A stretch of 64,000 nt of DNA from Leucoraja ocellata (Eukaryota). Shown one piece after another: positions 52,001 to 55,000 of this stretch. The position numbers are program-made. The stretch spans positions 1,984,001 through 2,048,000 of the forward strand of contig JAWMAR010000030.1 of assembly GCA_036785375.1 (NCBI GenBank). The letters run 5' to 3'. Within the stretch, counting starts at the first letter, position 1. The number at the start of each line of letters is the position of its first letter.

Positions 52001-55000
52001 ATTAAATACTTGTCACAGTGACAGATGCTTTAATACCCAACTTAACCTCGCCAGCCTTTGCTCATTTATTATTCAGCTTTTCAATATTTAAGCTGTGTCA
52101 GCTGTCACAAGTGCAAAAATGAACAATGTAACACACAAGGCTGGTTTCCGAGCCATCGATTCCACTCATAAAGCCCAAATGTGTTTCTATTCCCAATAAC
52201 CTACTGTGGTCTTCAGGACTCCAAGCCCTTTGAACTCTTCCTCAGATTCTCAAATGTCCGAGTCGAAACAATATACCTTCCAATCCATCAGTGCTCCGAC
52301 CCAGAGATGCAAAGACAATGCCCAAGTGCCGTTTCCATCTACTTAGCCTGAACAATTTGACCTATAAATTCCAGGAAGCTCGAGAACTCCTTACTTTCTG
52401 ATTTTTCTGGTACAACTCCAGTGAAAGTTTTCGAAGTGCTGTTCTTCTTCTCATTCTGTCATTGATGGATGATTCTTCATCTGAACACCCAGATCTTTAA
52501 GCATTTCAACATCTTTCATATCAATTACCCTAGATCATATGATCCCAAGTCATAGGAGAAGAATTAGGCCATTCGGCCCATCATGATAGATCAGGGATAA
52601 TAGATCATAGATCATGATAGATCATGGATGATATATCTTCCTGTCTCAACCCTATTCCCCTGCCTTCTCCCCATAACCTTTGACATCCATATTAATTAAG
52701 AACCTGTCAATCTCTGCTTTAAAAATACCCAATAACTTGGCCTCCACGCCAACTGTGGCATTGAATTCCACAGATTCACCACCCTTTGACTAAATAAGTT
52801 TCTCCTCATCTCCTTTCTAAAGGTACGTCCTGTTAGTTAATGAGAGAATGGTGTTAATTATAAAATGAAATTATAGCATGAAATTTCCAAGAACATTAAA
52901 TAGGCAAATGTGGTTAAAAGTTGCACACACACATTCTTGATTGTTCTTTCCATTGACATTTATGCTAGGTAAATAGAATTAGACAATAACTAAATATAGA
53001 CACAAAATACTGGAGTAACTCAGCAGGACAGGCAGCATCTCTGGAGAGAAGGAATGGGTGACGTTTTGAGTCGAGACCTAAAGATCTGAAGAAGGGTCTC
53101 GACCCAAAATGTCACCCATTCATTCTCTCCAGATGCTGCCTGTCCCACTGAGTTACTCTAGCATATTGTGCCTACCTTTGGTGTAAACTGGCATCTGCAG
53201 CTCCTTCCTAGACAGCAACTAGATGGGCTGATGTGGTGCTGAAGAGTATGGTGTCTCCAGTATGACTCTATAGTATGACTGACACATTCTGATGATTGAT
53301 AATAGTTCCAGTATTATGGCTCCAAAACTGGGCATTCAAGAAAAATGCAAGGAACTATTAAATTTTACTGAGCTGTTATGAATGTATCTGATCACAGAAG
53401 AGTTATAAACACAAAGGTGTGTATAATGTTGGAGTTAATACAAATGTTGCCTCATGACTCCAGCGAGCTGTAGTTCGATACTAACTTCCGATGCCTTCTG
53501 TGAGGAGTCCACAGATGCTGCCTGACTTGCTGAGTCTCATTGCTATTTTCTATTTTTATTTCAGAGGTCCCTTAAATGTTTGCCAAAGATGATTTCCCTT
53601 TCAAAAATCTATATTGGCCATACCGAATTCTCTGAAATTCTCCCCACAGTTGAAAACAGGATTGTCAGAGATCAAACTCCACTCAGTTGCTTCAGTGTCT
53701 GTCAGTTACATATTAGAGCCCCGTCAATTGAGGAGGTCTGTCAGAGATTGCAGTGAATTTAAACTTTTGTAGATTGACACATGGGAAAGTCAACAATCTG
53801 TAGAACGACTTTCACAGAAAGTCTGCAAAGTACTATTGATGAATGGCCAACCAGCCAGAACGAGTGGCTGCTTCCACTTATAGGGGGAAATGGTCTTTTT
53901 CACACTTCATTCCAGATAATTTAACAAGCTCATGGCCTAATGAGGAATGCAACACTGCAAGTGAGCCATCAGCAAGTTCTTTACTCGCCTGCATAATGTG
54001 TTACCATGACAATGTGAACATTACATCATTGTAAAGTGCAGCTTCATTACCAGCTATAAAGTTCAGAACGTGGAGGCCCATCAAATGGCAGCTTAGAATG
54101 GTTAGCAGCAATTAATCATGATAAGATTCTTCTTCGCTAGCTTTGCCAACATTAAAAATTGCAATTATAACCAGAGAGCCAGAAAATAAATGCATCTAAA
54201 TTATATTCAATGTGTCGAACAGTTATGATATGTGCAATACATGAACTAAATTCCAAAATAATGCAGCTTTTAATATTCTCGCATGGGACCTGGGTGAGGC
54301 CCTCATGAGCAGCTTTTGCCCTAAGTTTCCTTGAGAAAGTAGTGGTAACTACAATGAACTACTGGGACTCTACACAGGACGTTCCATGATTTAAACTGAA
54401 CAATGATGAATGAATGGTACTGATACATTTCCAAGTCTAAGATGTGTGATTTGTCAATCAAGGCCAATTGTACTTATATATCGTGGAGAAAGTATGAATT
54501 AAATTGATGTGGACATTGGTTGATCTGGGTGGTGGTAAGTCCTCATTTGAACATGAGATGGTTGATGGCAAATCTTATATCAAGAGAATAGGGGATGGTT
54601 GGGGATTGGAAATATGATTCTTCTGAGTCAAGTGGCTCAACCTGCGAAGGTTGTAAATATTTGCATATAGTTTGATGATTATGTGGCACAAAACATGGTA
54701 TTTCGCTTTTCTAATTTAAATTATTGATATGTTATTGCATGCAAATTGGCAGCATAAAGCTGCAATCAACAAAGAACACACAGAGAAATGATAGGTAGAC
54801 ACAAATGCTGGAGAATCTCAGCGGGTGAGGCAGCATTTATGGAGCGAAGAAATAGGTCACATTTCGGGTCGAGACCCTTCTTCAGAAATGATACGTCAAA
54901 GATAGATGTACCTCAATTCCATCTTATCCCCCCCCCTGGTCCAATCTCTCCCGACCTATGTCCAAGATACCTCATATGCCCTTCGTCTCTTTAACGACTT

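What the first reader, a model, noticed from the sequence alone, without database searches (positions are those of the whole stretch)
52997..53214. Inversion junctions of the palindromic copies cluster at the hammerhead
Seen: head-to-head copies at 5897-6085, 27811-27990, 35563-35785, 47798-47993, 52997-53214 and 63095-63268 all switch orientation within about 25 bp of the core, although each junction differs. Established: Penelope insertions often carry an inverted, truncated terminal repeat at the 5' end. Inference: the ribozyme fold or its cleavage sets where reverse transcription stops or re-primes. Many copies keep about 30 nt upstream of the predicted cleavage site, which does not fit a simple cleaved-monomer template and hints at uncleaved, multimeric or circular templates.
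Basis: partly seen in the sequence, partly recalled or inferred. Interest (0 to 1): 0.65.

Follow-up and report, generated by a model that had tools for sequence, protein, structure and literature searches.

The report
Mini Penelope-type repeats joined head-to-head
The palindromes are real: each is one insertion of a short Penelope-type retroelement piece, and they switch direction at the hammerhead motif because that motif is the first 30 bases of the copied unit, which is ordinary biology for this element class.

Summary
All six listed loci are head-to-head pairs that switch orientation inside or beside a minimal hammerhead (HHR) motif, and each junction differs.

The clustering is not specific to inversions. 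The repeat is a 100-135 nt unit: HHR core, about 70 nt, then an optional 33-34 nt tail. It begins 1-5 nt upstream of core base C3.
- Of 24 arms of the younger family, 12 start at that edge, 9 inside the HHR and 3 downstream.
- Solo copies use the edge too (8 of 13).
- An older family shares it (7 of 12 arms).

Five of the six listed palindromes have one clear 12-20 bp target-site duplication around the whole pair (35563 has only a weak 9/11 candidate). Each carries the tail on one arm only. This is the published Penelope-like-element signature at miniature scale.

- No arm starts at the predicted cleavage site, so templates were uncleaved, as reported for an Anolis element in 2024.
- Nothing supports multimeric or circular templates: no head-to-tail joint, and the same 5' end for short and tailed copies.
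- Modest residue: the second arm of a palindrome is more often cut back inside the HHR than solos are (7/11 vs 2/13, p=0.03).

Verdict: new member of a known kind. The genome-wide test could not be run.

The parts
52980..52995 (.). Left copy of the target-site duplication of the focal insertion
   Evidence: 52980-52995 matches 53209-53224 at 13 of 16 positions.
52990..53078 (-). Focal palindrome, inverted arm. Short 3' end, no tail. Its 5' end is cut back to -19, inside stem II of the HHR motif.
53079..53084 (.). 6 nt filler at the inversion junction
53085..53213 (+). Focal palindrome, full-length arm. It starts 1 nt before C3. HHR core is 53086-53113, predicted cleavage is between 53113 and 53114, and the tail is about 53180-53213. 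In this copy G12 and C15.2 are mutated.
   Evidence: The tail overlaps the right TSD copy by 5 nt.
53209..53224 (.). Right copy of the target-site duplication of the focal insertion
5897..6085 (.). Head-to-head pair. Both arms are cut back to about -9 to -12 around a 3 nt centre (5974-5976). The tail is on the + arm only. TSD 5885-5904 / 6086-6105 (17 of 20).
27806..27990 (.). Head-to-head pair. The - arm is full length (-31) with an intact min-HHR motif at 27855-27879. 8 nt filler. The + arm starts at about -13 and carries a degenerate tail. TSD 27803-27814 / 27995-28006 (12 of 12).
35563..35785 (.). Head-to-head pair of the older family. Both arms reach the CTGA box (boxes near 35661-35667 on the - strand and 35684-35690 on the + strand). 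About 12-13 nt filler. A tail-like end on the - arm only.
   Evidence: Not detected.
47796..47997 (.). Head-to-head pair. The - arm is full length with a tail. 14 nt filler (47912-47925) repeats nearby short strings. The + arm starts at -2. TSD 47781-47795 / 47994-48008 (13 of 15).
63090..63268 (.). Head-to-head pair. The - arm is full length with a tail. The + arm starts at -21 and is also short at its 3' end. 3 nt overlap at the joint. TSD 63078-63094 / 63269-63285 (15 of 17).
55570..55720 (.). Unlisted head-to-head pair of the older family. Arms end inside the core (about -9 and -14), with about 18 nt between them.
   Evidence: (pair I6).
11505..11655 (.). Unlisted insertion: a tiny inverted arm (about 11507-11522) abutting a near-full + arm with a tail. 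TSD 11495-11504 / 11656-11665 (9 of 10).
29793..29898 (+). Solo copy, short 3' end, starting at the same 5' edge, with an intact min-HHR motif at 29797-29821
55721..55851 (+). Solo copy with a tail, starting at the same 5' edge, inserted into the older pair at 55570-55720. Its own TSD is 55709-55721 / 55852-55864 (about 11 of 13).
54791..54886 (-). Solo copy, short 3' end, starting at the same edge. TSD 54784-54796 / 54884-54896 (12 of 13).
46371..46505 (-). Solo copy with a tail, reaching the 5' edge, with stem II deleted. TSD 46362-46372 / 46496-46506 (11 of 11).

Best explanation
The window is peppered with short, dead products of Penelope-like-element (PLE) retrotransposition.

The unit and its template:
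- Each unit is the stretch from a minimal hammerhead motif to the element's internal reverse-transcription start sites. There are two 3' ends, 33-34 nt apart, and the longer one carries the 'tail'.
- The template was a linear RNA that had not been cut by the ribozyme.
- Its 5' end lay 1-5 nt upstream of core base C3, so the RNA lacked most of helix I.
- cDNA that runs to that end gives a full unit.

The head-to-head pairs (inferred):
- A pair arises in a single insertion when both cut target strands prime cDNA synthesis and the two cDNAs meet head-on.
- One cDNA usually keeps its full end. The other is cut back by 8-29 nt or stops early, and the joint is sealed with a few filler or overlapping bases.

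Because the ribozyme motif is the first ~30 nt of the unit, every such joint falls in or beside it. The clustering is therefore a by-product of where the unit begins. What sets that beginning is not shown. I infer an RNA 5' end, such as a transcription start, rather than ribozyme cleavage.
For: Shown here:
- nhmmer found 34 arms.
- Of 24 arms of the younger family, 12 start at -27 to -33, 9 inside the HHR and 3 downstream. Against uniform truncation over 72 positions, the edge class has P=1.5e-8.
- Solos use the edge (8 of 13).
- The older family uses it too (7 of 12 arms, read from the alignment).
- Upstream flanks of edge-reaching solos share no collinear homology.
- TSDs of 10-20 bp flank whole pairs and solos (12/12, 15/17, 17/20, 13/15, 13/16, 9/10, 11/11, 10/10, 12/13).
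- The tail is on exactly one arm in 5 of 5 younger palindromes.
- The motif CTGANGA-N13-GAAAC with up to 1 mismatch has 8 hits against 1.24+-1.25 in shuffles, and 7 of the 8 lie in arms.

From papers:
- PMC11167929 (main text read): the Anolis PLE protein cleaves and extends both strands and starts reverse transcription at two internal sites that define the tail. HHR mutants do not change insertion, and unprocessed RNA is the main substrate.
- PMC8557442 (passages): an inverted 5'-truncated copy, and a 30-40 bp tail often at one end.
- PMC4209133 (parts 1-2 read): min-HHR features, and pairs of min-HHRs on opposite strands 100-700 bp apart.
Against: - No PLE reverse transcriptase or GIY-YIG ORF lies in the window, so the parent element and what lies upstream of C3 in it are unseen.
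- Rfam hammerhead models do not hit (0 matches at gathering score; none at E<=10 in two test stretches).
- Arms of a pair are not each other's nearest relatives except at 5897 (partner ranks 1-14 of 28-33 among the younger pairs). A shared template is therefore not shown.
- Short arms are under-detected, which inflates the share of full-length arms.
- Arm ends are ambiguous by up to about 7 nt between references (vs 51).
- In Drosophila virilis the transcript starts well upstream of the HHR (passages of PMC2377424), which does not favour a start site at the HHR edge.
- Six of 13 edge arms carry the same four bases before the box, so the 5' end is ragged and not fully explained.
Confidence: 0.6

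Rival explanations
1. The ribozyme's cleavage or fold makes reverse transcriptase stop or re-prime, and the extra ~30 nt come from uncleaved multimeric or circular (retrozyme-like) templates.
For: - Junctions do lie at the motif.
- Second arms of palindromes end inside the HHR more often than solos (7/11 vs 2/13, p=0.03).
- Three of them start in stem II, at -13, -19 and -21.
- Circular intermediates were proposed for PLEs in PMC4209133.
Against: - 0 of 24 arms start at the cleavage site.
- The modal end is upstream of the whole core, after the enzyme has already copied it.
- Solos share that end.
- 0 of 13 edge arms continue head-to-tail into another unit.
- Short-ended and tailed copies have the same 5' end.
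- HHR mutants did not change insertion in vitro (PMC11167929).
Confidence: 0.12
2. Snap-back. A single cDNA reaches the RNA's 5' end, folds back near its own 3' end and copies itself. The second arm is then a self-copy that starts a few to about 30 nt from the end.
For: - In 4 of 5 younger-family palindromes one arm is full length and the other starts 8-29 nt in.
- In all 5 the arm without the tail is no longer at its 3' end than the tailed arm, as an incomplete self-copy would be.
- The HHR region holds self-complementary stretches.
Against: - Fillers of 6-14 nt sit between the arms.
- Arms are not nearest relatives, though age may hide this.
- The PLE protein is shown to extend both strands, which makes two primers the simpler account.
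Confidence: 0.2
3. Two independent insertions. A second copy homes to the 5' end of an older one, because the PLE endonuclease recognises PLE sequence.
For: PLEs tend to insert into or beside earlier copies (passages of PMC6765202; PMC11167929). One nested insertion exists, at 55721.
Against: One TSD flanks each whole pair and none flanks single arms. The tail is on exactly one arm in 5 of 5.
Confidence: 0.04
4. Pairs were born as symmetrical palindromes and later lost their centres through palindrome instability. Alternatively, a foldback element was copied as a whole.
For: The transcript hairpin is very stable (-125.5 kcal/mol, z=-19), and long palindromes are deletion-prone (general knowledge).
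Against: In 4 of 5 pairs one arm keeps its exact terminal bases, which is unlikely after random central deletion. Junctions, arm lengths and TSDs all differ, so the pairs are not copies of one another.
Confidence: 0.04

Closest known systems
Penelope-like element insertions with an inverted 5'-truncated copy and a one-sided 30-40 bp tail (passages of PMC8557442; D. virilis Penelope in PMC2377424)
   Same: Head-to-head arrangement, variable junctions, tail on one end only, TSDs of variable length, and an HHR motif near the copied 3' region.
   Different: Here the whole insertion is only about 150-220 bp, with no ORF and no pseudo-LTR tandem. Both arms are just the HHR-to-tail piece.
Anolis Poseidon element PAc in vitro (PMC11167929)
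   Same: Two internal reverse-transcription start sites about one tail apart, roughly 100-135 nt downstream of the HHR box. Both DNA strands can prime. Uncleaved RNA is used as template.
   Different: In PAc the ORF starts inside the HHR. Here the box has no start codon (younger family) or is followed by an early stop (older family). The 5' ends of products were not a topic of that paper.
Minimal hammerheads of PLEs (PMC4209133)
   Same: CUGANGA and GAAA boxes, an extra base between positions 9 and 10.1, a G10.1-C11.1 pair, and no helix III but a palindromic ACGU or AACGUU that could pair in a dimer. Occurrence as single dispersed motifs and as pairs on opposite strands.
   Different: In the copies here helix I can be at most 2 bp, because shared sequence ends 1-5 nt before C3. 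Activity is untested.
Non-LTR retrozymes (PMC7229834; bioRxiv 10.64898/2026.07.22.740005)
   Same: Short non-coding HHR-bearing repeats thought to be moved by PLE enzymes. Dispersed 'monomers' are reported.
   Different: Retrozymes are head-to-tail tandems that give circular RNAs. No tandem joint occurs in this window.
LINE-1 twin priming (recalled, not from a call)
   Same: Both target strands prime, and an inversion with a junction of microhomology or filler forms inside one TSD.
   Different: In twin priming the inverted part comes from a different, more 5' stretch of one RNA. Here both arms copy the same 3' stretch.

Membership tests
Penelope-like element (autonomous) | ORF with reverse transcriptase and GIY-YIG endonuclease | tested here: not met
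   All 20 stop-to-stop frames of 110 aa or more were scanned against Pfam. No RT or GIY-YIG was found. The copies are non-autonomous fragments.
Penelope-like element (insertion signature) | Inverted 5'-truncated copy next to the 5' end | tested here: met
   six listed and three unlisted head-to-head insertions.
Penelope-like element (insertion signature) | 30-40 bp tail, often at one end only | tested here: met
   a 33-34 nt extension on exactly one arm in 5 of 5 younger palindromes. Both 3' end types also occur among solos.
Penelope-like element (insertion signature) | Partial tandem forming pseudo-LTRs | tested here: not met
   0 head-to-tail joints. The one same-strand neighbour is a nested insertion.
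Penelope-like element (insertion signature) | Target-site duplication of variable length | tested here: met
   10-20 bp duplications at 10 insertions.
Minimal hammerhead of PLEs | Core boxes CUGANGA and GAAA at the right spacing | tested here: met
   8 hits against 1.24 expected, 7 of them in arms. Exact at 27855-27879, 29797-29821 and 63192-63216. Many copies carry CpG-type decay of G12.
Minimal hammerhead of PLEs | Extra base between 9 and 10.1, G10.1-C11.1 pair, palindromic 15.2-16.2 without loop 3 | tested here: met
   Read directly from the aligned arms, against the features listed in PMC4209133.
Minimal hammerhead of PLEs | Helix I of 4-5 bp | tested here: not met
   Shared sequence ends 1-5 nt before C3. 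Only two pairs are possible. The parent element is unseen.
Hammerhead ribozyme (Rfam models) | Match to a curated hammerhead covariance model | tested here: not met
   no hammerhead family, even at E<=10. I recall that these models represent canonical forms with helix III; I did not check this.
Hammerhead ribozyme | Self-cleavage | not testable with these tools
   Needs transcription and cleavage assays, as monomer and as dimer.
Non-LTR retrozyme | Head-to-tail tandem repeats giving circular RNA | tested here: not met
   no tandem copies in 64 kb. Circular RNA cannot be tested here.

The most novel reading that the evidence does not exclude
The 5' edge of the ribozyme core is a programmed end of the mobilised RNA. 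Unit-length transcripts would begin 1-5 nt before C3, lack helix I and so be immune to self-cleavage, while longer read-through transcripts are cut. In the same reading, the second cDNA of a two-sided insertion is re-primed or trimmed preferentially within the ribozyme's self-complementary stretch, which gives the ribozyme sequence a DNA-level role in sealing inverted insertions.
Probability: 0.2. Interest if true: 0.55.

Novelty: new member of a known kind. Interest (0 to 1): 0.3.

Why it matters
How Penelope-like elements build their tandem and inverted insertions, and what their hammerheads are for, are still open questions (Discussion passages in PMC8557442 and PMC4209133).

These miniature insertions are easy to read end to end. 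In this window they argue for three points:
- Templates are linear and uncut.
- Product 5' ends sit just before the ribozyme core.
- One insertion event can lay down two converging copies.

If the same 5' edge holds genome-wide, the open question changes. It would no longer be whether the ribozyme cuts the template, but what defines an RNA end right at the ribozyme. That can be tested with 5'-end mapping.

Tried and rejected
- Rfam found nothing useful. There were 0 matches at gathering score for the whole window. In E-value mode, two stretches gave no hammerhead. The palindrome matched only microRNA hairpin models below their cut-offs, which I read as generic hairpin matches.
- Nearest-neighbour identity could not show that the two arms of a pair share a template. 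It was uninformative except at 5897, so I dropped an earlier by-eye claim of a private shared variant at 27806.
- A weak Pfam TMIE match (38817-39170, below cut-off) does not look like a real exon on translation. I did not use it to name the host, and the host remains unidentified.
- Because PLEs and min-HHR families are reported absent from mammals, I do not take the contig for human.
- The solo unit has no unusually stable RNA fold (z=+0.65).
- Literature search for a statement that PLE inversion junctions or 5' ends cluster at the HHR found nothing. The five terms 'penelope-like, hammerhead, truncated, inverted, junction' gave 0 papers. 'penelope-like, reverse transcription, inverted, both strands' gave 3 papers, none on this point. 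A search on cartilaginous fishes gave nothing relevant.
- Two papers were not held: Lunse et al. (PMC5785218) and Pyatkov et al. 2004 (PMC522041).
- One search had a term-syntax error and one script crashed and was fixed.
- I built no spliced gene model.
- I ran no scan of a public collection.

Full report
**What is there.** The window (64,000 nt, no N) carries a dense family of short repeats. Starting from one arm of the focal locus, nhmmer found 23 arms, and after three profile rounds 34 arms (alignment with flanks).

Read on the strand that carries the hammerhead-like motif, a unit has these parts:
- 1-5 variable bases;
- the box CTGAAGA, one extra A, a 4 bp stem with a tetraloop, GAAAC and GTC;
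- the predicted cleavage point, 28 nt after C3;
- about 70 nt of conserved sequence;
- then either the end of the copy (short form) or a further 33-34 nt (tailed form).

A younger family has two sub-variants. An older, much more diverged family has the box CTGATGA and the same layout.

**Is the motif a hammerhead?**
- The pattern CTGANGA-N13-GAAAC with up to one mismatch occurs 8 times against 1.24+-1.25 in shuffles (0 of 100 shuffles reach 8). Seven of the 8 lie in arms.
- The arms show the features that Cervera and De la Pena list for minimal PLE hammerheads (PMC4209133, parts 1-2 read): an extra base between positions 9 and 10.1, a G10.1-C11.1 pair, and no helix III but a palindromic ACGU (AACGUU in a sub-variant and in the older family).
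- Against it, Rfam's hammerhead models give nothing.
- Helix I can be at most 2 bp in the copies.
- Most copies have decayed. At the G12 position 7 arms carry A, which fits CpG decay.
- Activity is untested.

**The observation.** Five of the six listed loci are found as inverted repeats. The sixth (35563-35785) belongs to the older family and appears only in the alignment.

Junction anatomy:

| Pair | Arm 5' ends (relative to cleavage) | Between the arms |
|---|---|---|
| 27806 | -31 and about -13 | 8 nt filler |
| 47794 | -31 and -2 | 14 nt filler |
| 52990 (focal) | -29 and -19 | 6 nt filler |
| 63088 | -29 and -21 | 3 nt overlap |
| 5897 | both about -9 to -12 (by eye) | 3 nt centre |

Every junction is different, and all sit in or beside the core.

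**Why they cluster.** The same 5' edge is used whether or not a copy is part of a palindrome.
- Of 24 younger-family arms, 12 start at -27 to -33, 9 inside the core region and 3 downstream.
- Among 13 solo arms, 8 start at the edge. Among 11 palindrome arms, 4 do (Fisher p=0.41).
- In the older family 7 of 12 arms also begin 1-2 nt before C3 (by eye).
- Upstream flanks of edge-reaching solos share no collinear homology.
- TSDs abut that edge at 54791-54886, 46371-46505 and 55721-55851.

The unit therefore simply begins at the ribozyme core, and two near-full units joined head-to-head must switch there. Against uniform truncation the edge peak is strong (P=1.5e-8). Short arms are under-detected, however, and the ends are uncertain by up to about 7 nt (vs 51).

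**Single events with the PLE signature.**
- Each younger palindrome is flanked by one duplication around the whole pair: 12/12, 15/17, 17/20, 13/15 and 13/16.
- Each has the tail on exactly one arm (5 of 5).
- This matches published accounts. An inverted 5'-truncated copy and a 30-40 bp tail, often at one end only, are described in passages of PMC8557442. A 34-37 bp repeat is described in D. virilis (passages of PMC2377424).
- The Anolis PLE protein cleaves and extends both DNA strands, starts reverse transcription at two internal sites that define the tail, and uses mainly unprocessed RNA. HHR mutants leave insertion unchanged (PMC11167929, main text read).
- The distances fit. The two 3' ends here lie about 100 and 135 nt after the box, against +111-118 in Anolis.
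- No RT or GIY-YIG ORF is in the window, so these are non-autonomous or dead-on-arrival products.

- Cleavage: no arm starts at the cleavage site. The nearest are -2 and -6.
- Multimeric or circular templates: none of 13 edge-reaching younger-family arms continues into another unit. The only same-strand neighbour, at 55721, is a nested insertion with its own TSD.
- Short-ended solos (10689, 29800, 54882) and tailed solos (26833, 46491, 55727) have the same 5' end. A full turn on a circle would instead place the tail ahead of the core in short-ended copies.
- The uncleaved-template part is supported. The multimeric or circular part is not, within this window.

**What remains specific to inversions.**
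- In 4 of 5 younger palindromes one arm keeps the full end and the other is cut back by 8-29 nt.
- Arms ending inside the core are commoner in palindromes than among solos (7/11 vs 2/13, p=0.03). The p value is 0.10 if the two tiny inverted arms at 11507-11522 and 63599-63609 are counted. With the older family added by eye it is 0.01-0.016.
- Three cut-back arms start in stem II.
- I infer that two converging cDNAs, or a snapped-back one, are joined near their ends with trimming, filler or microhomology. The 14 nt filler at 47912-47925 repeats nearby strings, as templated end-joining would.
- Which of the two routes applies is open. Arm-to-arm identity (0.78-0.94 in the younger pairs) gave no power to decide.

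**What sets the 5' edge is not shown.** Nine of 13 edge arms have AGT before C3, and six have the same four bases before the box, so the end is ragged. I favour an RNA 5' end there. D. virilis Penelope starts transcription further upstream, which counts against this. An intron ends right at helix I in that species, a parallel I cannot interpret.

**Limits.**
- This is one window.
- Supplements were closed.
- Two relevant papers were not held.
- Searches for a published statement of this clustering found none.

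Noticed in passing
window 22799-23017 and 25165-25487: Two other inverted-repeat pairs (38 nt at 84% and 49 nt at 86%) share the same terminal string, which begins AAGGGCCTGTCCCAC. They look like terminal inverted repeats of an unrelated small DNA-transposon-like element (pairs I9 and I3).
   Followed up: no
window 55570-55851: A younger-family copy (55721-55851) is inserted, with its own duplication, into the right arm of an older-family palindrome (55570-55720). This gives a relative age order for the two families.
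   Followed up: partly
window 53207-53213 with 52980-52984, and 63088-63094 with 63279-63285: In two palindromes the target-site duplication begins with 5-7 bases that resemble the last bases of the tail. The target may have paired with the template at initiation. The Anolis study reports no such homology.
   Followed up: partly
window 27803-27814 and 5900-5904: Non-tailed arms start at unusual internal positions where the target shares bases with the element: 6 bases at 27809-27814 and 5 at 5900-5904. This suggests microhomology-guided priming of the second arm.
   Followed up: partly
window 52990-53183 and 27811-27944: A transcript through a palindrome would form a hairpin about 90 bp long (-125.5 kcal/mol, z=-19). 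Rfam microRNA hairpin models match it below their cut-offs. It could be a source of double-stranded RNA, but nothing shows that it is used.
   Followed up: partly
window 24331-24678 and 43463-43861 (- strand): Open frames match Pfam ALKBH8_N (E=9e-4 and 4e-5), the latter just above the cut-off. I recall this domain from the C-terminal part of some LINE proteins, so these are probably LINE remnants.
   Followed up: no
window 11530, 24884, 26833, 40821, 46491, 53078, 53089 arms: Seven arms carry A instead of G at core position G12, where the intact copies have a CpG. This is the expected decay of dead copies, and it inactivates the motif.
   Followed up: partly
window 6970-7000: A (CT)n microsatellite directly follows an older-family arm (row 6903).
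   Followed up: no
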